Positions 4 through 32,949 of a stretch of DNA of 64,000 nt are shown piece by piece. Source of the DNA: a virus; IMG/VR virus record IMGVR_UViG_3300032291_002550, positions 436-64,435 of that record; one strand, 5' to 3'. Each line of letters starts with the position of its first letter. Positions within the stretch are counted from its first letter, which is position 1. A program made the position numbers and the translations under genes. The notes under the pieces are model-generated. The model was not told the DNA's origin, did no database searches, and saw nothing but the letters and a program-made list of their open reading frames with translations.

Positions 4-1644
<1,641 letters not shown>

Positions 1645-1650
1645 TAAGTT

Positions 1651-1761
1651 ATGTTAAATAGATTTGTTGAGTTATTAGCAGAAATTCAGCAAGAAAAAGA
1701 AAGTCCCGTTTCACTAAATATTAACTCTAGGGTTATGTTAGTGGACGGGACTAATTTTTAA
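1651..1761 (+). pseudogene. Short ORF (36 aa) duplicating the 5' end of the downstream RNase H gene
   Basis: Encodes MLNRFVELLAEIQQEKESPVSLNINSRVMLVDGTNF*. The C-terminal NSRVMLVDGTNF is homologous to LDVNSRPMVIDGTNFFF encoded at 2815-2913 just upstream of the RNase H body. Its start has the aagttATG context. It contains the inverted repeat gtcccgt(1703-1709)/acgggac(1745-1751). Confidence 0.4.
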
Positions 1762-1811
1762 TTCTTTTCTTAGTTAGTTTTCTATGTAGCCATATATTTA
1801 TTTTAAAAGAA

Positions 1812-2816
1812 ATGTATACACAAGAACAAATAAATAAAGTATATGAGTTATTAACTGACACTAATAATTCTATTTGCGGATTAAGTAACTTAAATATAAT
1901 GAGGTATTTGGGTCATGATAGACCTAAAAAATCCGTAATTAAAAAATTATCTAATCAACTATTCTCGACATATAGTAAAGAATATATAATGGCTATTTGT
2001 AGATCTAAGCAAAGTCGTATAGCAAATACATCCAGAAATTCTAAACCTATACGATATTCAGATGCTTCTAAAAAGCGTATGAGTGAGTCAATGAAGAGAC
2101 GAAATAGTGAGATAAAAAACACTCCGGAAGGTGAGCGCATTTTTCAAATTAAACGTGATGCTATGCTTAAGACTCGTTCATATGGACTTCATTTAACTGA
2201 CGAAGCTATGAAAAAGAAATATCAAACACGTAAATCAAAGTCTGATAAATGGCATTCTGACGAAACTATTAAAAAAATGATATTATCTAATACGGGTCAA
2301 ACACGGAATGAAGTATCTAAGAAACGTATGTCAGATGCTAAAAAAGGTACTATACCATGGAATAAAGGTATTCCATGTAAAGATAGTACTAAAGAAAAGT
2401 TGTCTGATGCTATATCCTATCTTCATCAAATTGGTAATTATCCATTTAAAATTAAATCAAAGGGACATGCAGAAATTGAACAAATATTACTAGAACTTAA
2501 TTATGATGTAATATCTGAATTTAAATTAGGAAAATATTCATATGATCTTTATATTAAAGATATCTTACTAATAATAGAATTTCATGGAACATATTGGCAT
2601 TTAGACCCGAAGATATATAAAGAAGATTATTATGATAAATCAAAAAATCGATATGCAAAGGATCAATGGGATAGGGATGATATTAGAAAATGTCATGCTA
2701 CATCTGCTGGGTATAAATATTCAGTTATATGGCAATCAGAATGGGAAAGTATGACTACCCAAAATAAAATAAATAAACTTAAATCAATAATAGAAAATGG
2801 ATATAGAATACCTTAA
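1812..2816 (+). CDS. Homing endonuclease (HEG1): NUMOD3-like DNA-binding repeats plus a C-terminal PD-(D/E)xK (DUF559/Vsr-like) nuclease domain
   Basis: Tandem H-S-(D/E)-E-T-K-x-K-(I/M)-S-like repeats: KWHSDETIKKMILSNTG, SKKRMSESMKRRNS, SKKRMSDAKKGT. C-terminal YSYDLYIKDILLIIEFHGTYWHLDP...K matches the D-x(n)-E-x-H/K nuclease core. Inserted in the 5' region of rnh. Confidence 0.7.
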   Translation: MYTQEQINKVYELLTDTNNSICGLSNLNIMRYLGHDRPKKSVIKKLSNQLFSTYSKEYIMAICRSKQSRIANTSRNSKPIRYSDASKKRMSESMKRRNSEIKNTPEGERIFQIKRDAMLKTRSYGLHLTDEAMKKKYQTRKSKSDKWHSDETIKKMILSNTGQTRNEVSKKRMSDAKKGTIPWNKGIPCKDSTKEKLSDAISYLHQIGNYPFKIKSKGHAEIEQILLELNYDVISEFKLGKYSYDLYIKDILLIIEFHGTYWHLDPKIYKEDYYDKSKNRYAKDQWDRDDIRKCHATSAGYKYSVIWQSEWESMTTQNKINKLKSIIENGYRIP

Positions 2817-2893
2817 TAAATTATTCAAAGAAACCTTTGAATCTAACAATCAATCATTAACATTAGATGTTAATTCACGCCCCATGGTAATAG

Positions 2894-3856
2894 ATGGGAC
2901 GAATTTTTTTTTTAAGATGTTTTATGGCTAACCCCGTAATGAATGAAAACGGGGAGCATTTAGGCGGGTCTTTAGGATTCTTAAAGTCACTAGCTTCTTA
3001 TGTTAAAACATTCAAACCTACAAGAATTATTATTACGTTTGATGGTAAAGGAGGCTCTAAAAAAAGAAAAGAGTTATATCCTGAATATAAAGGTAATCGT
3101 TTAGCTCCTAAATCTTTTAACAGAGCTGAGATATTTGAAAATGCAGAAGATGAAAGTGCTTCAATGAAGCATCAGTTTGTAAGATTAATACAATACCTAC
3201 GTTGCTTACCGGTGTCGGTAATTACTGCAGATCATGTAGAAGCAGATGATATGGTAGCATATTTAACTACAGATATTCTTAATACAAAAAGTAATAATGT
3301 AATGATAGTTTCAGACGATAAAGATTATCTGCAACTTGTAAATGAGAAAGTTAATGTATATAGACCAGTAGAAAAGCGTTTATATAAATTAGAGGATGTT
3401 AAAGTAAGATTTGGGGTACCTGCAGAGAATTATCACCTCTATAAAGTATTTATTGGAGATGATGGCGATAATATACCCGGAGTGCCTGGAATCGGCCCTA
3501 AGACCGTAGGAAAATTGCCTATTTTACAAGAAAATAGAGTAGTTGGTTTAGAAGAATTTTTATCTTTTTGCGAAGATAAACAAGATGATAAATTATACAA
3601 AAAAATCATTAACAATAAAGACATTATAACACGTAATTATAAATTAATGCAACTACATAATGTAGATATATCAGGTACACATAAACTATTCTTAATTGAT
3701 AAGTTTAACGAACCTATATCGTTAATTAATAAAAATGAGTTTATACAAATATTAACTACTGATAAAGGATATAACTATATTAACGATCCTATTACATTTT
3801 TAAATATGTTTAATCAGTTAAATATATTTGCACTAGGAAATAATAATAATTCTTGA
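2894..3856 (+). CDS. rnh: RNase H / 5'-3' exonuclease (FEN family, T4 rnh-like). The true start is probably the ATG at 2884, which requires a frame change in a T10 tract
   Basis: IIITFDGKGGSKKRKELYPEYKGNR, the H3TH motif GDDGDNIPGVPGIGPKT, and acidic active-site residues. The ORF as called begins MGRIFFLRCF and lacks the conserved DG Asp. The upstream out-of-frame ATG at 2884 encodes MVIDGTNFFF*, which supplies it. Confidence 0.85.
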   Translation: MGRIFFLRCFMANPVMNENGEHLGGSLGFLKSLASYVKTFKPTRIIITFDGKGGSKKRKELYPEYKGNRLAPKSFNRAEIFENAEDESASMKHQFVRLIQYLRCLPVSVITADHVEADDMVAYLTTDILNTKSNNVMIVSDDKDYLQLVNEKVNVYRPVEKRLYKLEDVKVRFGVPAENYHLYKVFIGDDGDNIPGVPGIGPKTVGKLPILQENRVVGLEEFLSFCEDKQDDKLYKKIINNKDIITRNYKLMQLHNVDISGTHKLFLIDKFNEPISLINKNEFIQILTTDKGYNYINDPITFLNMFNQLNIFALGNNNNS

Positions 3857-3887: not shown

Positions 3888-5249
3888 ATGAGTCAAGATA
3901 GATTTACGCAGTACGGAAAAACCTTTCAATTAAAAATAATTGCAGCCCTTATAAAAGATAAAACATTTCTTCAACAAATATTCGATATTCTAATACCTGA
4001 ATATTTTGATTCTGAAGCTAATATTTGGATTGTAGATATTATCATGAAATACTTTCCAGAATATAAAACAGTACCTACATTAGAAGTATTTAAAGTAAAG
4101 GCGCTAGAACTTACATCTGAACCTTTAAAAATGTCTATCGTAGAATCTTTAAAAGATATATTAAGATATGTTGAAGCAGAAGATTTAGATTTTGTCAAAA
4201 CAGAATGTGTTAACTTTTGTAAAAATCAATGTATTAAAAAAGCTATTATCGAATCTGTTGAGTTATTACAATCAGGAGAATATGATAATATCAAAAAGAA
4301 AATTGATACTGCAATGAAAGCAGGAGCTAATCAAGATATTGGATTAGATTATTTAAAGGATGTTAAGCTTCGTTATGAAGAATCTGCTAGAATAACTTTA
4401 CCTACACCTTGGACTGCATTTAATGAATTGGTTGATGGCGGTATTGGTAAAGGAGAGCTTATTATATTTGTGGCAGGACCTGGTGCTGGTAAATCTACTT
4501 CGATGATTAATGTAGGAGCTCATTTATTAAGACAAGGAAAAACAGTAGTCCATTATACAATGGAATTATCAGAGCCCTATGTAGCTCAAAGATATGATTC
4601 AGTAGTTACTGGAATAGCAACAGCAAACTTAAAATATAACTTAGAAGAAGTTGAGCATGAATTATCAAAACTAAAAGGACAATTATATTTAAAGTTCTTT
4701 CCGACAAAAACAGCATCTGTAACGACATTAAAAGCTCATTTAGATAAAATGATAATGCAAGGAGTAAAACCTGATATTGTTATTGTAGATTATGCAGATT
4801 TATTACGTTCAGCAAAAGCAAAAGAAAAACTTCATGAAGAATTAGAAACTACATATGAAGATTTAAGAGGATTAGCCGGAGAATATCAAATACCAGTTGT
4901 TACGGCATCTCAAGCAAATAGATCTTCTGTAGAATCTGATATTATTACATCAGATCAAGTAGCTTCTTCATTTAGTAAGATTATGATTGGAGATGTTATT
5001 ATTTCATTAGCAAGAAAAACAACAGATAAGATTGCAGGTACAGGAAGAGTGCATTTTATTAAGAATCGTTTCGGGCCAGATGGATTAACATTACCAACTA
5101 AACTTAATATGTCAAATGGTAGAATTGATATGTATCAAGAATCATCTGTTAAAGGAAGAGAAACAAAAACAGAGATGGATGAAGATTCAGTAACACGAAA
5201 ATCTTTAGCTACAAAATATTCAGAACTTCTAGGAAATTCTCTAGGATAA
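3888..5249 (+). CDS. Replicative DNA helicase (DnaB / T4 gp41 family)
   Basis: Walker A IIFVAGPGAGKSTSM, RecA-like core, 453 aa, and a position next to the replication genes. Confidence 0.75.
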   Translation: MSQDRFTQYGKTFQLKIIAALIKDKTFLQQIFDILIPEYFDSEANIWIVDIIMKYFPEYKTVPTLEVFKVKALELTSEPLKMSIVESLKDILRYVEAEDLDFVKTECVNFCKNQCIKKAIIESVELLQSGEYDNIKKKIDTAMKAGANQDIGLDYLKDVKLRYEESARITLPTPWTAFNELVDGGIGKGELIIFVAGPGAGKSTSMINVGAHLLRQGKTVVHYTMELSEPYVAQRYDSVVTGIATANLKYNLEEVEHELSKLKGQLYLKFFPTKTASVTTLKAHLDKMIMQGVKPDIVIVDYADLLRSAKAKEKLHEELETTYEDLRGLAGEYQIPVVTASQANRSSVESDIITSDQVASSFSKIMIGDVIISLARKTTDKIAGTGRVHFIKNRFGPDGLTLPTKLNMSNGRIDMYQESSVKGRETKTEMDEDSVTRKSLATKYSELLGNSLG

Positions 5250-28862: not shown

Positions 28863-29540
28863 ATGAAAAGAACATTATATTCGCGCGCGACCACAGGAAA
28901 GGTTTTAGAATGGACTATTGAAGTCGAATCTAATAAATATCGTACAATATCCGGTTATATAGACGGAGTAAAAACAACATCAGAATGGACTGTTTGCGAG
29001 CCTAAAAATATAGGAAGAGCAAATGCTACGACAGCAGAAGAACAAGCTATTAATGAATCAACAGCTATTCATCGTAAGAAAATGGAAAAGGGCGCATTTG
29101 AAAATATTAATGATATTGATACACCTATTTATTTCGAGCCAATGTTAGCTGCTAAATGGGAAGATTATAAAAATAAAATAGCATTTCCAGCATATTCTCA
29201 ACCGAAGTTAGATGGCTGTTTAAGTTATGATACGTTAATTAATACTGATAAAGGTAAGTTGATGATCGGAGATATTATTAATAATAATATCGATTGTTTA
29301 GTAGATACATATAATACCAATACCAATTTAATTGAACGTAAGAAAATTTTAAATAGAATGAAAAATGGTATTGATATTAATGAACAGCAACAAACTCAAT
29401 GGTATGAAATCGAAGTGGAAGATGGTCGAAAAATTAAAATTACCGGCAACCATCGAGTATATCTTCCGAAGTTACGGTGTTGGAGACGAGTAGATGAGTT
29501 AAATGAAAATGATATATTATTAAACTATTTTAAAAAATAA
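28863..29540 (+). CDS. lig: ATP-dependent DNA ligase, N-terminal fragment (N-extein through motif I KLDG) fused to the N-terminal half of a split intein
   Basis: Motif I PKLDG is followed directly by intein block A CLSYDTLI and block B ITGNHRVY. The ORF terminates after the intein-N region. Confidence 0.8.
   Translation: MKRTLYSRATTGKVLEWTIEVESNKYRTISGYIDGVKTTSEWTVCEPKNIGRANATTAEEQAINESTAIHRKKMEKGAFENINDIDTPIYFEPMLAAKWEDYKNKIAFPAYSQPKLDGCLSYDTLINTDKGKLMIGDIINNNIDCLVDTYNTNTNLIERKKILNRMKNGIDINEQQQTQWYEIEVEDGRKIKITGNHRVYLPKLRCWRRVDELNENDILLNYFKK
29217..29537 (+). mobile_element. Split intein N-terminal half (IntN, ~107 aa)
   Basis: Starts with Cys (CLSYDT) immediately after the ligase KLDG. 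Contains the TxxH block B (TGNH). Confidence 0.75.
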
Positions 29541-29589
29541 CCATCAACTTTTTGGTGTAATATAATAATTATAATAAATAAAGATTTAT

Positions 29590-30504
29590 ATGACACCTAT
29601 AGAAAAGTTACAACAGATAGAACTGAATACAGCAATTTTAAATTACCACGGTAATGATCATACAAGAAGAAAGTACATACGTGATATTATTACTGCTGAA
29701 TTACTTAAGTATTTAGTAATTGATAAAAAATATCCATCTAATTACATCGGAACATTGATTTCTGATATCATCGGTATACGAATAGATGCAGGATATATAA
29801 TTCATAGATGTAAAGAATTAAATATTAAAACATTTTCAATTAAAGAATCTGCTAACTTAAAATCAACAAAAGTAAGAAAGGCAGAAACATGTATAAAGAA
29901 ATATGGGTCATCAAATCCGTTAGGAAAACAAAGCCCGATATATAAAAAGCGCAATCAAACAGTCCAAGAAAAGTATGGTGTATCAAATGTATTTCAACTA
30001 GACTCTGTTAAAATGAAAACAAAAGATACGATGATAAAAAAGTATGGTGTATCAAATCCAGTATATATGGAAAACTATAAACGAAATTGTGGGCGTCGTA
30101 GTAAAATACATACTACAATAGAAACTCTCTTAATTGACTTAAATATACAATTTGAATCAGAAAAAAGAAATATGTTTTCTGCATTTAATAAATACTATAA
30201 TAAAATATATTCGCCTCAAGTAGACATCCTATTGAATGATTATAATATAGTAATAGAAATAAATGGAGATTTATGGCACGCAAATCCTAAAAAATATAAA
30301 GCAACTGACTTAATACCATTACGAATTGGACAGACTGAAGCCCAGATAATTTGGGCACGTGATGCTGCCAGAACAGAACAAATTAAATCATTCGGCTTCG
30401 AAGTAATTGAATTATGGGAGCATGATATTAAAACTAACTTAAGTATAATAAAAGAACAGTTATATGAAAAAATATATAAAAATAACAAAAATTACGAAGA
30501 TTGA
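29590..30504 (+). CDS. Homing endonuclease (HEG2) between the split-intein halves: KYGVSN repeats plus a C-terminal PD-(D/E)xK nuclease
   Basis: Repeats KKYGSSNP / EKYGVSNV / KKYGVSNP. C-terminal DILLNDYNIVIEINGDLWHANP resembles the nuclease core of HEG1 and HEG3. The 3' end overlaps the IntC ORF. Confidence 0.7.
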   Translation: MTPIEKLQQIELNTAILNYHGNDHTRRKYIRDIITAELLKYLVIDKKYPSNYIGTLISDIIGIRIDAGYIIHRCKELNIKTFSIKESANLKSTKVRKAETCIKKYGSSNPLGKQSPIYKKRNQTVQEKYGVSNVFQLDSVKMKTKDTMIKKYGVSNPVYMENYKRNCGRRSKIHTTIETLLIDLNIQFESEKRNMFSAFNKYYNKIYSPQVDILLNDYNIVIEINGDLWHANPKKYKATDLIPLRIGQTEAQIIWARDAARTEQIKSFGFEVIELWEHDIKTNLSIIKEQLYEKIYKNNKNYED

Positions 30505-30577
30505 TCCTGAAGTTAAATATGATCTTGAAATACAAGATAACCACAACTATTTTGCAAACGATATACTAGTGCATAAT
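30464..30577 (+). mobile_element. Split intein C-terminal half (IntC, 38 aa)
   Basis: Ends in block G NDILVHN, followed by the Cys+1 of the extein. Confidence 0.75.
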
Positions 30578-31315
30578 TGTCGTGCCATTGTTAAGAGTGA
30601 CGGTATGTGGACACGAAATGGTAAGCCTATTATATCTGCTCCGCATATATTTGAATGTCTTAAGCCGTTATTTGAAATTAATCCAGATCTTATTTTTGAC
30701 GGGGAACTTTATGCTGATAAATTTGCTAACGATTTTAATGCTATATGTTCATTAGTAAAGAAAACTAAACCAACAGCCGAAGATATTAACGAATCAAAGG
30801 AAAAGATTCAGTATCATGTATATGATTTACCGAGCTTTAATGCCACATTTGTTCCAAGATTCCAACATCTTCATAAAATGCTTACAAATTATCACCCGTC
30901 TATTGTTGTTGTACAAACAGAACAAGTAGACAATTTTAATGATGTAGATGCGTTCTACGAAGATTATATTTCTTTGGGATATGAAGGTCAAATGATACGA
31001 TTAGACGCTCAATATGAACATAAAAGAACAAAGTCTTTATTAAAGAATAAGTCCTTTATAGATGAAGAATATACGATCATTGATATTGAAGAAGGTAATG
31101 GAAACAAAGCCGGAATGGTAGGTTCTTTTGTATTTAAGAATGCTAATGGCAAAATATTCAATGCTTCTCCTAAGTTTAACTGGGGCATATGCCAACGAAT
31201 GTTAAACGATAGAGAATTATTAATCGGAAAAGAAGCTACGATTAAGTATTTTAATTTAACACCAGATAATATACCTAGATTTCCGTACGTAATAGCGATA
31301 CGAGATTACGAATAA
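30464..31315 (+). CDS. lig: Split intein C-terminal half fused to the DNA ligase C-terminal fragment (C-extein)
   Basis: After ...ILVHN, the extein CRAIVKSDG completes motif I KxDGxR. It is followed by motif III LIFDGELYA, motif IV EGQMIRLD and motif V LLKNKS. Confidence 0.8.
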   Translation: MKKYIKITKITKIDPEVKYDLEIQDNHNYFANDILVHNCRAIVKSDGMWTRNGKPIISAPHIFECLKPLFEINPDLIFDGELYADKFANDFNAICSLVKKTKPTAEDINESKEKIQYHVYDLPSFNATFVPRFQHLHKMLTNYHPSIVVVQTEQVDNFNDVDAFYEDYISLGYEGQMIRLDAQYEHKRTKSLLKNKSFIDEEYTIIDIEEGNGNKAGMVGSFVFKNANGKIFNASPKFNWGICQRMLNDRELLIGKEATIKYFNLTPDNIPRFPYVIAIRDYE

Positions 31316-32440: not shown

Positions 32441-32513
32441 ACTCAGATGGCGTAATTGGTAACGCGCCCGTCCTGGAGATGGGAAGATATAGGTTCGAAT
32501 CCTATTCTGAGTT
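32441..32513 (+). tRNA. tRNA (73 nt). Anticodon loop CCUGGAG, so Pro(UGG) in the canonical register, but position 33 is C
   Basis: Hand-folded. Acceptor actcaga/tctgagt, D-stem gcgt/acgc, anticodon stem cccgt/atggg, T-arm atagg-ttcgaat-cctat. No encoded CCA. Confidence 0.6.
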
Positions 32514-32547
32514 CAAAAAAAAAATAACTTGCAAGTTATTTTAAATA

Positions 32548-32668
32548 GTCAGGTGGCGGAAAGGTATTAGTAGTGGTGAACGAAAATATCGTGGTAGACG
32601 CTAGTTAACAGACAGAGAGATAAAAGGAATGGTTTACTCTCATACAGGTTCGAATCCTGTCCTGACTA
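32548..32668 (+). ncRNA. Atypical tRNA-like element (121 nt) with a canonical acceptor stem and T-arm but a non-tRNA interior
   Basis: Acceptor agtcagg/cctgact and T-arm acagg-ttcgaat-cctgt are perfect. I could not fold the ~85-nt interior into D or anticodon arms. Confidence 0.35.
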
Positions 32669-32682
32669 CTAAAAAGAAAGTT

Positions 32683-32838
32683 ATGTCATCAGAAACAAAA
32701 AAAAGAAAGTCAGATAAAAAATTACATTGGGGTCGAGGTAGACATTTCATGAAATGGGTAGGTAAGGGCATAAAAGGACTTACTTATTTTACATCGTCTC
32801 AAAGACGAATAAATAATAAAATTGACTTAGAAGATTAA
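32683..32838 (+). CDS. Small basic protein (51 aa). Track ORF 32629..32838 trimmed to the aagttATG start
   Basis: MSSETKKRKSDKKLHWGRGRHF..., preceded by the conserved aagttATG context. The N-terminal part of the track ORF overlaps the tRNA-like element. Confidence 0.3.
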   Translation: MSSETKKRKSDKKLHWGRGRHFMKWVGKGIKGLTYFTSSQRRINNKIDLED

Positions 32839-32843
32839 AATAT

Positions 32844-32935
32844 AGTCAGGGGGTAATATAGGCAGCTACCCATCCGGAGTGGGGTGAGTTAAGAAGTGGG
32901 TTTCTTAAATGCAGGTTCGAATCCTGCCCTGACTG
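32844..32935 (+). ncRNA. Atypical tRNA-like element (92 nt), paralogous to the 32548..32668 element
   Basis: Same acceptor agtcagg/cctgact, and T-arm gcagg-ttcgaat-cctgc. The interior holds a 7-bp hairpin ttaagaa-gtgggt-ttcttaa and a possible tccggag loop, but no clean cloverleaf. Confidence 0.35.
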
Positions 32936-32949
32936 CAAAAATTAAAAGT

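What the first reader, a model, noticed from the sequence alone, without database searches (positions are those of the whole stretch)
1645..2916. HEG1 sits in the 5' end of rnh, flanked by duplicated rnh 5' segments; the intact rnh N-terminus needs a frame change in a T10 homopolymer
The short ORF 1651..1761 ends ...LNINSRVMLVDGTNF*. The same peptide, plus homologous upstream residues (NKLFKE/LNRFVE), is encoded again at 2815..2913 (LTLDVNSRPMVIDGTNFFF*) directly in front of the rnh body. HEG1 therefore lies between two copies of about 100 nt.

The downstream copy holds the catalytic Asp (DG) and the ATG at 2884, but it is one frame off from the rnh ORF. The two join only across a run of ten T (2904..2913). 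Either 11 or 8 T would fuse them into M-V-I-D-G-T-N-F-F-L-R-C-F-M-A-N-P....

Three readings fit: a homopolymer sequencing error, programmed slippage regulating rnh, or an intron-like arrangement in which the upstream copy is exon 1.
Basis: seen in the sequence. Interest (0 to 1): 0.7.

Follow-up and report, generated by a model that had tools for sequence, protein, structure and literature searches.

The report
Homing-endonuclease cassette with built-in frameshift
A selfish endonuclease gene has inserted into a phage replication-nuclease gene (rnh), bringing its own replacement gene start plus a strictly conserved run of ten T that breaks the reading frame, most likely a programmed slippage site that also shields the phage from its own endonuclease, like the famous T4 gene 60 "hop".

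Summary

Window 1651..1761 is the resident rnh 5' end. It matches endonuclease-free relatives up to base 1758. Bases 1759..~2917 are a mobile cassette holding:
- a Vsr-like/NUMOD3 homing endonuclease (1812..2816);
- a divergent replacement rnh 5' end (2797..2913), overlapping the endonuclease stop out of frame;
- the T10 run.

T10 is not a sequencing error. Twelve contigs from separate assemblies, carrying five cassette variants in different resident backgrounds, all have exactly T10.

More distant relatives of this endonuclease sit before rnh in over 100 loci. There the replacement 5' end stops right after the catalytic-Asp motif DG(L/T/M), at an in-phase stop plus a 2-35 nt insert. Often the codon before the stop matches the codon before translation resumes (CTT TGA CTN). 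The endonuclease is never next to an uninterrupted allele. The interruption persists after endonuclease loss. The replacement segment is under purifying selection.

Best reading: a second, independent analogue of the T4 mobA/gene 60 cassette. Here the frame is probably restored by RNA-polymerase slippage or a +1 ribosomal shift on U10. Expression is inferred, not shown. Intron and error readings are rejected.

The parts
28..1644 (+). Phage GroEL gene. It is the upstream neighbour and the left homology arm for homing.
   Evidence: Pfam Cpn60_TCP1, E = 2e-78. In endonuclease-free relatives its stop is followed after 6 nt by the rnh start.
1651..1761 (+). Relic of the resident rnh 5' end: 36 codons plus a stop created at the cassette junction.
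   Evidence: Identical in protein to the N-terminus of endonuclease-free homologue P0001. Matches L001-L003 at all but 2-3 of its 108 nt, up to base 1758, then breaks cleanly. In each other cassette-bearing lineage the relic matches that lineage's own uninterrupted allele.
1702..1752 (+). Native RNA hairpin of the rnh 5' coding region. Its 3' arm covers the V-D-G-T codons.
   Evidence: MFE z-scores of -4 to -6 in uninterrupted alleles. 86.5% of cells are paired, against 25-47% in slid controls, and 4 pairs show compensatory changes.
1759..2917 (+). The inserted mobile cassette: spacer, endonuclease gene, replacement rnh 5' end, T10, and the TTA AGA codons.
   Evidence: Absent from L001-L016, which have GroEL followed directly by rnh. 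Resident identity ends at 1758 and resumes at about 2915-2918 once one T is removed. The cassette is less diverged than its flanks: dS 0.08 against 0.36 for window vs L086.
1812..2816 (+). Homing endonuclease gene: NUMOD3 DNA-binding repeats plus a C-terminal Vsr-like PD-(D/E)xK nuclease.
   Evidence: Pfam NUMOD3 at 35 bits (cut-off 20.4); MTES_1575 at 28 bits, below its cut-off. Invariant D245, E256, G259, Y261, W262, H263 across 13 homologues. Homologues at 41-99% identity, looked up, all sit before rnh.
2797..2913 (+). Cassette-borne replacement 5' end of rnh. It starts 20 nt inside the endonuclease ORF, out of frame, and carries the catalytic Asp of VIDG.
   Evidence: Fused with the body at 9 T, it gives 352 aa that match PF02739 from profile position 3 and cover 98% of 350-352 aa homologues. 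Equivalent segments in sister lineages have dN/dS of 0.12-0.22 at dS of 0.8 or more.
2878..2901 (+). Short hairpin CGCCCCAT-GGTAATAG-ATGGGACG, 2 nt before the T run. With the run it looks like a terminator.
   Evidence: -8.8 kcal/mol, z about -1 to -2. Flagged as terminator-like. The stem is invariant and only loop positions vary among the cassette variants. This is weak evidence.
2904..2913 (+). The T10 run, the recoding site. One base too many for a continuous ORF.
   Evidence: Exactly 10 T in 12 contigs and five cassette variants. Uninterrupted alleles have at most T5 here. It is the only T run of 8 or more in the 64-kb window.
2912..3856 (+). rnh body (5'-3' exonuclease / flap endonuclease, T4 RNase H type), in the +1 frame from TTA AGA TGT.
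   Evidence: Pfam 5_3_exonuc_N at E = 2e-33 and 5_3_exonuc at E = 2e-10. 92% identical to the uninterrupted homologue P0001. Body dN/dS is 0.02-0.15.

Best explanation
Bases 1759..~2917 are a mobile homing-endonuclease cassette that has invaded the phage rnh gene (5'-3' exonuclease, T4 RNase H type) at the conserved VDGTNF codons.

The cassette leaves the resident first 36 codons behind as a dead relic (1651..1761). It carries three things:
- a Vsr-like/NUMOD3 endonuclease gene;
- its own diverged copy of the rnh 5' end, which starts inside the endonuclease's last codons;
- at the 3' end of that copy, a T10 run holding one base too many.

Full-length Rnh is made only when one U is lost. The likelier route is RNA-polymerase slippage on the ten-base homopolymer, which spans the whole RNA-DNA hybrid. 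A short upstream hairpin may help. The other route is a +1 shift of tRNA-Phe from UUU to the overlapping UUU.

The extra base also changes the spacing of the reconstituted target sequence. This would protect the invaded genome from its own endonuclease. The same logic has been shown for the T4 mobA endonuclease and the 50-nt gene 60 bypass.

Shown here: the cassette anatomy, its mobility, the strict conservation of T10, and purifying selection on both coding parts.

Inferred, not shown: that the frame is restored, by which mechanism, and the protective role.
For: Breakpoints are clean against endonuclease-free relatives.

The same cassette sits in at least four different resident backgrounds. 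In each, the relic matches the local uninterrupted allele.

The cassette is much less diverged than its flanks: dS 0.08 vs 0.36, and 0.12 vs 0.95.

T10 is invariant in 12 contigs and five variants while neighbouring bases vary.

Removing one T gives DGTNFFLRCF, the same length as DGTNFYLRCF in relatives.

The cassette's own TTA AGA codons lie beyond the run in the new frame.

Two codon changes (TAC to TTT, TTG to TTA) extend a native T5 to a run as long as the RNA polymerase hybrid. Bacterial RNA polymerase slips efficiently at 9 A/T, and a 5' hairpin can direct a one-base deletion (PMC5009743).

Sister cassettes interrupt rnh at the same codon with an in-phase stop plus 2-35 nt. Most junction types repeat part of the take-off codon just before decoding resumes: about half of the 22 types keep its first two bases, and several more keep its last two.

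In loci retrieved by searching with the rnh protein, all 22 endonuclease-bearing loci are interrupted and 0 of 101 uninterrupted alleles has the endonuclease. Eighteen interrupted alleles have lost the endonuclease but remain intact.

The replacement segment has dN/dS of 0.12-0.22.

The anatomy matches the MobA element point by point (10.1101/2022.08.31.505936).
Against: There are no expression data. No transcript, peptide or cleavage assay exists for any member, and all members are metagenomic.

In the zero frame no stop or obviously slow codon follows the UUU codons (the next codon is AAG). A purely ribosomal +1 shift therefore lacks the usual stimulator.

The upstream hairpin in this family is weak (z about -1 to -2).

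Within the T10 family the replacement segment shows only 3-20 substitutions per pair, with dN/dS of 0.06-0.7, which is not decisive on its own.

Much of the purifying selection seen on rnh bodies may predate invasion.

T4 rnh is not strictly essential, so a cassette that merely damages rnh could still spread.

Some sister junctions have no matching landing triplet (L112, L190, L193, L207), and several have a GTG or TTG overlapping the stop. More than one mechanism may therefore operate.
Confidence: 0.6

Rival explanations
1. The cassette is purely selfish and rnh is simply knocked out. T10 and the replacement 5' end hitch-hike with the endonuclease, and host Pol I or another nuclease covers the lost function.
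For: Homing can spread a mildly harmful insert. T4 rnh mutants are viable (general knowledge of T4). Most body divergence may predate invasion.
Against: A ten-base homopolymer is highly mutable, yet it is invariant across variants whose endonucleases differ by 25%.

No body carries any further stop or frameshift, whether in the roughly 25 lineages seen first or in the 22 junction types catalogued later.

The replacement segment has dN/dS of 0.12-0.22 at saturating dS.

Interrupted alleles stay intact after endonuclease loss.

The pair L120/L123 shows 12 synonymous changes against 1 non-synonymous change in the body.
Confidence: 0.12
2. Rnh is made as a split protein. A 44-aa N-terminal peptide (2797..2931) and a body started at an internal ATG (2894 or 2924) assemble non-covalently, as in the endonuclease-split NrdA of phage Aeh1 or T4 gp39/gp60.
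For: Gene callers start the body at ATG 2924, giving 310 aa. The U-rich leader could favour initiation without a Shine-Dalgarno sequence. Some sister junctions have GTG or TTG overlapping the stop: TAGTG, TTGTGA, CTTTGA. Endonuclease-split genes that still function are known.
Against: Most sister junctions offer no start codon at all after the stop (CTT TGA CTN AAC, ACC TGA CA AAC and others), and no Met before the conserved N-x-F-I-R.

A body started at 2924 lacks FFLRCF. Those codons are nevertheless conserved in the body frame, with synonymous variation.

The cut would fall between strand beta-1 and helix alpha-1 of the nuclease core.
Confidence: 0.12
3. The hairpin plus T10 is an intrinsic terminator or attenuator ending the endonuclease transcript. 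The frame break is incidental.
For: The consensus scan flags 2881..2898 plus the T tail as terminator-like.
Against: The stem is short and weak (-8.8 kcal/mol). Termination inside the only usable 5' end of rnh would abolish rnh expression. It does not explain why sister cassettes carry stops without T runs at the same codon. It is not exclusive with slippage, because slippage-stimulating hairpins share features with terminators.
Confidence: 0.05
4. A homopolymer sequencing or assembly error. The true genome has T9 and an ordinary continuous ORF.
For: Homopolymers are classic error sites. All the data are assemblies, and I could not inspect reads.
Against: Twelve contigs from ENA, JGI and Logan assemblies of different runs and projects, carrying five sequence variants, all show exactly T10. 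Not one fused product was returned from the 5.8-billion-protein collection. Sister families have non-homopolymer interruptions at the same codon.
Confidence: 0.02
5. An intron-like element. The upstream copy is exon 1 and everything up to the T run is spliced out of the RNA.
For: The upstream relic is an intact in-frame 5' end in all T10-family loci.
Against: No group I or II intron model matches at E up to 10. The non-coding space is only about 150 nt. In sister lineages the relic lacks the DG motif or is absent, while the downstream copy is always kept and is under purifying selection.
Confidence: 0.02

Closest known systems
T4 mobA / gene 60 bypass cassette (MobA element; Bonocora et al. 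2011; Manning & Atkins 2022, bioRxiv 10.1101/2022.08.31.505936)
   Same: - An endonuclease gene is inserted at a fixed site in a conserved phage replication gene.
- The insert encodes a replacement segment homologous to, but diverged from, the host sequence.
- That segment overlaps the endonuclease ORF out of frame (20 nt here, 8-32 nt there).
- A recoding insert ('stops and/or frameshifts') lies at the segment's 3' end.
- The insert ends at or just after the resume point.
- There are multiple independent recent invasions.
- The endonuclease can be lost while the recoding site is kept.
   Different: - The endonuclease is Vsr-like/NUMOD3, not HNH.
- The target is rnh, not the topoisomerase II large subunit.
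- The gene is not split into two working halves. Its first 36 codons are replaced and the old ones left as a relic.
- The recoding insert is 1 nt in a T10 run (2-35 nt in sister lineages) rather than 50 nt.
- There is no GGA take-off/landing pair and no known nascent-peptide signal.
- Nothing has been tested experimentally.
Programmed transcriptional slippage (Thermus dnaX T9, Shigella spa13/mxiE, Roseiflexus IS630 hairpin-stimulated slippage; PMC5009743)
   Same: A conserved homopolymer at least as long as the 9-10 bp RNA-DNA hybrid joins two coding frames. A hairpin lies just 5' of the run. The change needed is loss of one base, which is what the Roseiflexus hairpin mechanism produces.
   Different: Here the run sits in an endonuclease cassette and probably also protects the target site. 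The hairpin is weak. Slippage has not been measured.
Synthetic 'stop-hops' (Weiss et al. 1987) and prfB-type +1 frameshifting
   Same: The P-site tRNA re-pairs to a matching codon downstream. Here that is UUU to UUU (+1). In sister cassettes it is CUU-UGA-CUN (+6), the matched-codons-flanking-a-stop design.
   Different: The T10 site has no stop or known slow codon in the A site. Stop-hops were engineered constructs, and the review and preprint I consulted describe them only as such, with no natural use mentioned.
Endonuclease-split genes that keep function (mobE in Aeh1 nrdA; T4 genes 39/60)
   Same: A free-standing endonuclease inside an essential-pathway gene, with added terminal segments that preserve function.
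   Different: Those rely on non-covalent assembly of two substantial polypeptides with proper start codons. Here most lineages have no start codon for the downstream part.

Membership tests
MobA-type endonuclease + recoding mobile cassette (functional class) | Endonuclease ORF inserted at a fixed site within a conserved phage gene, with presence/absence among near-identical genomes | tested here: met
   GroEL-rnh is contiguous in L001-L016. The same flanks with the insert occur in the window and L086-L096, with clean breaks at 1758 and about 2917.
MobA-type endonuclease + recoding mobile cassette (functional class) | Insert-encoded replacement segment, homologous to but diverged from the host sequence, overlapping the endonuclease ORF out of frame | tested here: met
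   2797..2913 is about 55% nt identical and 15/36 aa identical to the resident segment, and overlaps the endonuclease ORF by 20 nt.
MobA-type endonuclease + recoding mobile cassette (functional class) | Conserved stop or frameshift insert at the 3' end of the replacement segment, inside the cassette | tested here: met
   T10 is invariant in 12 contigs. The cassette-specific TTA AGA codons follow it in the new frame.
MobA-type endonuclease + recoding mobile cassette (functional class) | The recoding insert is decoded through (bypass or frameshift) and protects the site from the endonuclease | not testable with these tools
   Only indirect support. In loci found with rnh queries, the endonuclease is never beside an uninterrupted allele: all 22 endonuclease-bearing loci are interrupted, against 0 of 101 uninterrupted alleles. 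Both coding parts are under purifying selection.
MobA element proper (homologous family) | HNH-family MobA endonuclease, topoisomerase II target, 50-nt gap with GGA take-off and landing | tested here: not met
   Pfam finds NUMOD3 plus a Vsr-like nuclease. The target is a 5'-3' exonuclease and the gap is 1 nt. This is an analogue, not a member.
Vsr-like (PD-(D/E)xK) free-standing homing endonucleases with NUMOD3 | NUMOD3 DNA-binding motif and a Vsr-type catalytic core | tested here: inconclusive
   NUMOD3 is above its cut-off (35.4 vs 20.4 bits). The nuclease model MTES_1575 is below its cut-off (28.1 vs 38.2 bits). However, D245, E256, G259, Y261, W262 and H263 (IIEFHGTYWH) are invariant in 13 homologues, and one homologue is labelled Vsr by JGI.
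Programmed transcriptional slippage site | A/T homopolymer of 9 or more, with length conserved among diverged relatives and coding sequence in two frames on either side | tested here: met
   It is the only T run of 8 or more in the window.
Programmed transcriptional slippage site | Heterogeneous transcripts (U9/U10/U11) | not testable with these tools
   No transcript data are available.
+1 programmed ribosomal frameshift (prfB/antizyme type) | P-site codon allowing +1 re-pairing, plus a slow or stop A-site codon | tested here: inconclusive
   Re-pairing from UUU to UUU is perfect. The zero-frame A-site codon is UUU or AAG, not a stop.
Group I/II intron carrying an endonuclease gene | Conserved catalytic RNA core flanking the ORF | tested here: not met
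   No Rfam intron match at the gathering threshold or at E up to 10.
Intein | In-frame Hint domain within the host protein | tested here: not met
   The endonuclease ORF is separate and out of frame, and has no Hint/intein Pfam hit.

The most novel reading that the evidence does not exclude
The T10 run is one member of a large, previously undescribed natural series of recoding sites: a +1 shift, 5-11 nt 'stop-hops' with matching take-off and landing codons, and one 35-nt gap with a hairpin. These have evolved repeatedly at a single codon of phage rnh as self-protection modules of Vsr-like homing-endonuclease cassettes. If so, 'recoding as endonuclease immunity' would be a general principle rather than the single curiosity of T4 gene 60. 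It would also supply dozens of natural short-bypass variants for mechanistic study.
Probability: 0.5. Interest if true: 0.9.

Novelty: new variant of a known kind. Interest (0 to 1): 0.8.

Why it matters
Translational bypassing in T4 gene 60 has been studied for over 35 years. According to the 2022 preprint I read, its bypass cassette "remains unique". The only rationale offered for it, that the insert protects the phage from its own homing endonuclease, rests on that one element.

Here an unrelated endonuclease family, in an unrelated gene, shows the same architecture. Its interruptions range from one extra T to 35 nt. Uninterrupted alleles, endonuclease-bearing alleles and alleles that have lost the endonuclease all occur in the same phage clades.

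This makes the protection hypothesis directly testable. It provides natural counterparts of the engineered "stop-hops". It also flags a class of phage genes that automatic annotation truncates or calls pseudogenes: rnh was called as 310 or 320 aa, or even shorter, in every cassette-bearing contig.

Tried and rejected
- The repeat finder did not detect the duplication because the copies are too diverged.
- Rfam scans found no intron or other RNA family in 1500..3200.
- I first took the strong hairpin ending at the take-off codon (z of -4 to -7 in interrupted alleles) as a bypass-specific 5' stem-loop. Controls showed the same hairpin in uninterrupted, endonuclease-free alleles. It is a native feature of the gene and not evidence for recoding in itself.
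- RNAalifold on an ungapped 28-sequence alignment returned no structure, because the 5' arm shifts between lineages. Covariation could be counted only within the resident family.
- No T10-type cassette exists in IMG/VR.
- No endonuclease homologue exists in 50,697 deposited phage genomes. The nearest isolates by Rnh are Microcystis phage Mel-JY01 and Flavobacterium 'immuto' phages, at 37-46% identity. No cultured system is therefore at hand.
- Searching the literature for the sample and run identifiers found nothing, so the sequencing platform is unknown to me.
- Stop-codon reassignment was considered for the sister cassettes. It was rejected because TGA, TAG and TAA all occur at the same position and many junctions also change frame.
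- One dN/dS script timed out and was rewritten.
Full report
WHAT IS IN THE WINDOW

The region reads as follows:
- GroEL at 28..1644.
- A 36-codon ORF at 1651..1761 (MLNRFVELLAEIQQEKESPVSLNINSRVMLVDGTNF*).
- A 334-aa ORF at 1812..2816 with NUMOD3 motifs and a Vsr-like nuclease C-terminus.
- A 44-codon ORF at 2797..2931 (MDIEYLNKLFKETFESNNQSLTLDVNSRPMVIDGTNFFFKMFYG*).
- In the +1 frame, the body of a 5'-3' exonuclease / flap endonuclease of the T4 RNase H type, running to 3856.

Bases 2904..2913 are ten T.

The two short peptides are related: 15 of 36 residues are identical. Within the window each finds the other at E of about 1e-5, and nothing else scores below E = 0.1. At the DNA level they are only about 55% identical, so this is not a recent duplication.

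Direct translation with 6 to 13 T shows that 6, 9 or 12 T fuse the frames. With 9 T the sequence reads ...VIDGTNFFLRCFMANP... and the ORF is 352 aa. With 8 or 11 T a TAA results.

THE UPSTREAM COPY IS RESIDENT; THE DOWNSTREAM COPY CAME WITH THE ENDONUCLEASE

The 9-T fusion matches Pfam 5_3_exonuc_N from profile position 3. It aligns over 98% of its length to 350-352 aa homologues.

Those homologues all begin ML(N/E/S)R(F/Y)VELL...NINSRVMLVDGTNFYLRCF. The best of them, P0001, has the peptide of ORF 1651..1761 exactly.

In IMG/VR relatives L001-L016 the GroEL stop is followed after 6 nt by this rnh start. There is no endonuclease and no interruption.

Base-by-base comparison shows the following:
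- The window matches these alleles at all but 2-3 positions up to 1758 (...GGGACTAATTTTTA), then diverges completely.
- Identity resumes at about 2915-2918 (AGATGTTT...), but only if one T is removed.

The insert is therefore 1759..~2917. It contains the endonuclease gene, a foreign version of the first 38 rnh codons, the T run, and the first two codons after it (TTA AGA; a resident relative has CTT CGC).

T10 IS REAL AND CONSERVED

The window is part of a 196.9-kb ENA scaffold. An independent Logan assembly of run ERR2848539 is identical over 6.4 kb.

The endonuclease has homologues at 99%, 79%, 75%, 75% and 74% identity. Their contigs come from other runs and projects. All have the same layout: GroEL, relic, endonuclease, replacement 5' end, then a truncated rnh call.

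Every contig that reaches the site has GATGGGACGAA + T10 + AAG. That is 12 contigs and five sequence variants, and positions around the run vary among them.

In each lineage the relic matches that lineage's own uninterrupted allele, and the body is that lineage's body. L094 against L009 is an example.

Synonymous divergence of the cassette is far lower than that of the flanking rnh body. For the window against L086 it is 0.08 against 0.36. This is the signature of horizontal spread by homing.

No product fused through the run was returned from the 5.8-billion-protein collection: the best hit is 92% identical and has the resident-type N-terminus.

Uninterrupted alleles have at most T5 at this place. 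T10 is the only T run of 8 or more in the 29.5%-GC window. Dinucleotide shuffles would give about four A/T runs of 10 or more; the window has this T10 and one A10 just after a tRNA gene.

A sequencing error is therefore excluded for practical purposes.

THE WIDER FAMILY

Endonucleases at 41-45% identity sit in the same place in phages that lack GroEL, between uvsX and rnh. They show the same short ORFs on either side.

In those phages the replacement 5' end runs in frame into the body, but through GTC GAC GGT CTT TGA CT(G/A) AA(C/T). This reads V D G L stop L N, whereas the family consensus is DGLNxFIR.

Searching two contig collections with a profile of 13 endonucleases gave 160 loci. In nearly all those with a full-length endonuclease, rnh lies immediately downstream.

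Across about 25 lineages the replacement 5' end stops immediately after DG(L/T/M). An in-phase TGA, TAG or TAA is followed by a short insert, and the body resumes at N-x-F-I-R. The junctions are:

| Gap (nt) | Junction |
|---|---|
| 2 | ATG tg |
| 5 | ACC tgACA; TTG or CTG taGTG; ACT taGCT |
| 6 | CTT tga/taa/tag CTN in ten lineages; TTG tagTTA; CTC taaCTT |
| 7 | (several lineages) |
| 8 | (one lineage) |
| 11 | CTT tgaagaagCTG |
| 35 | contains a GC-rich hairpin |

Of the 22 distinct junction types catalogued later, about half have a triplet before the resume codon that shares its first two bases with the take-off codon. Several more share its last two bases. This is the design of the engineered "stop-hops" and, on a small scale, of gene 60. 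The window's UUU to UUU (+1) is the limiting case.

ASSOCIATION AND SELECTION

These counts come from loci retrieved with rnh proteins, and so are unbiased with respect to the endonuclease:
- All 22 endonuclease-bearing loci are interrupted.
- None of 101 uninterrupted alleles has the endonuclease.
- Eighteen interrupted alleles have no endonuclease. In those checked by ORF listing, uvsX is followed directly by a short N-terminal ORF, the junction, and an intact body.

The relic is shortened (L098, L136) or absent (L116, L106, L112, L134, L108) in other lineages. The replacement 5' end is always kept.

Between deeply diverged cassettes the replacement segment has dN/dS of 0.12-0.22 at dS of 0.8-1.5. 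Bodies have dN/dS of 0.02-0.15.

Within the T10 family the replacement segment has few substitutions and dN/dS of 0.06-0.7. That is not decisive alone.

These patterns say that the replacement segment is translated and matters, and that the body stays functional. Together this requires some way across the interruption.

MECHANISM (INFERRED)

For T10 I favour loss of one U during transcription, for three reasons:
- The run is as long as the 9-10 bp RNA-DNA hybrid.
- Bacterial RNA polymerase slips efficiently at 9 A/T.
- The cassette has changed two codons (TAC to TTT, TTG to TTA) in a way that lengthens the homopolymer far beyond what a ribosomal shift needs.

A short hairpin (2878..2901) 2 nt upstream has an invariant stem. 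It resembles the hairpin that directs a one-base deletion in a Roseiflexus insertion sequence. It is weak, however.

A +1 shift of tRNA-Phe is the alternative, or an additional contribution. It lacks a slow A-site codon.

The protective role is inferred from two things. One is the perfect one-way association above. The other is the MobA precedent, where substitutions alone did not block cleavage but the bypass insert did.

WHAT I CORRECTED ALONG THE WAY

A strong hairpin whose 3' arm covers the V-D-G codons ends exactly at the take-off codon in interrupted alleles (z of -4 to -7). It is equally present in uninterrupted, endonuclease-free alleles, including the relic at 1702..1752. It has compensatory changes.

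It is therefore a native feature of the gene. It may have predisposed this codon to recoding, but it is not evidence for recoding.

COMPARISON WITH KNOWN SYSTEMS

The anatomy matches the MobA/gene 60 element as described by Manning & Atkins:
- an insert-encoded, diverged homologous segment;
- an out-of-frame overlap with the endonuclease ORF;
- a cassette of "stops and/or frameshifts" at its end;
- an insert that ends at or just after the resume point;
- repeated recent invasions;
- loss of the endonuclease with retention of the recoding site.

It is not a member of that family. The endonuclease is Vsr-like rather than HNH. The target is rnh rather than topoisomerase. The gene's 5' end is replaced rather than the gene being split. 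The insert is 1 nt rather than 50.

I found no description of it in the searchable literature. No relative of the endonuclease exists in deposited phage genomes.

VERDICT

The finding is real and more interesting than proposed. It is a new variant of the endonuclease-plus-recoding cassette, with a conserved T10 as its recoding and protection module.

Confidence is high for the anatomy, the mobility and the conservation. It is moderate (about 0.6) for functional recoding and protection, because nothing has been measured.

Noticed in passing
window 28863..31315: The DNA ligase gene is in pieces. ORF 28863..29540 ends with an intein N-terminal splicing region. ORF 29590..30504 is a free-standing DUF7487/DUF559 (Vsr-like) endonuclease, 29% identical to the C-terminal domain of the rnh-associated one. 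ORF 30464..31315 begins with an intein C-terminal region followed by the ligase adenylation and OB domains. It looks like a split-intein 'fractured gene' with an endonuclease between the halves.
   Followed up: partly
window 1702..1752, and the same place in L001, L005, L007, L008, L014, L097, L265-L324: A conserved hairpin lies inside the first 35 codons of rnh, with its 3' arm on the V-D-G-(T/L) codons. It is present in uninterrupted, endonuclease-free alleles (z of -3 to -9) and has compensatory changes. Its function is unknown. Possibilities are translational control or a determinant of the endonuclease target.
   Followed up: partly
L104-L212, L264-L414 (junction list): Over 20 distinct short interruptions of rnh occur directly after DG(L/T/M). 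Each begins with an in-phase stop. They include CTT TGA CTN (+6) and a 35-nt gap with a GGCCCCCC/GGGGGGTC hairpin (L193). They are candidate natural stop-hops or bypasses.
   Followed up: partly
L338, L343, L352, L412, L413, L277, L319-L321: These are interrupted rnh alleles with no endonuclease. uvsX is followed directly by a short N-terminal ORF, the junction and an intact body. Either the endonuclease was lost after invasion or these are cleavage-resistant alleles kept by selection.
   Followed up: partly
window about 4490..4497 (DnaB-like helicase 3888..5249); L001 7679..9200; L094 3803..5114: Relatives carry an insertion of about 1.5 kb at the Walker-A region of the helicase gene. In L094 it has an intein-splicing Pfam hit and a small MTES_1575 ORF. 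The window lacks this insertion.
   Followed up: no
L098 1417..3870; also L396, L106, L112: uvsX is split by another Vsr-like endonuclease (284 aa...VIECYGDYWH...). The upstream piece covers UvsX residues 15-250. The downstream piece covers residues 232-385 after a 123-aa extension. A 19-residue stretch is therefore duplicated across the insert, reminiscent of the replacement-segment strategy.
   Followed up: partly
window 32441..32936: tRNA-Pro (TGG) lies at 32441..32514 and is followed immediately by an A10 run at 32515. ARAGORN also reports an odd 93-nt tRNA-like call with a 2-nt anticodon at 32844..32936.
   Followed up: no
L091-L094, left cassette junction: Three cassette variants carry 9 extra nt (TCTATATTA) between the relic and the common left end, so the relic reads ...NFYLY*. 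The window and L095 lack them. This suggests a small deletion between TTA repeats, or a slightly different recombination point.
   Followed up: no
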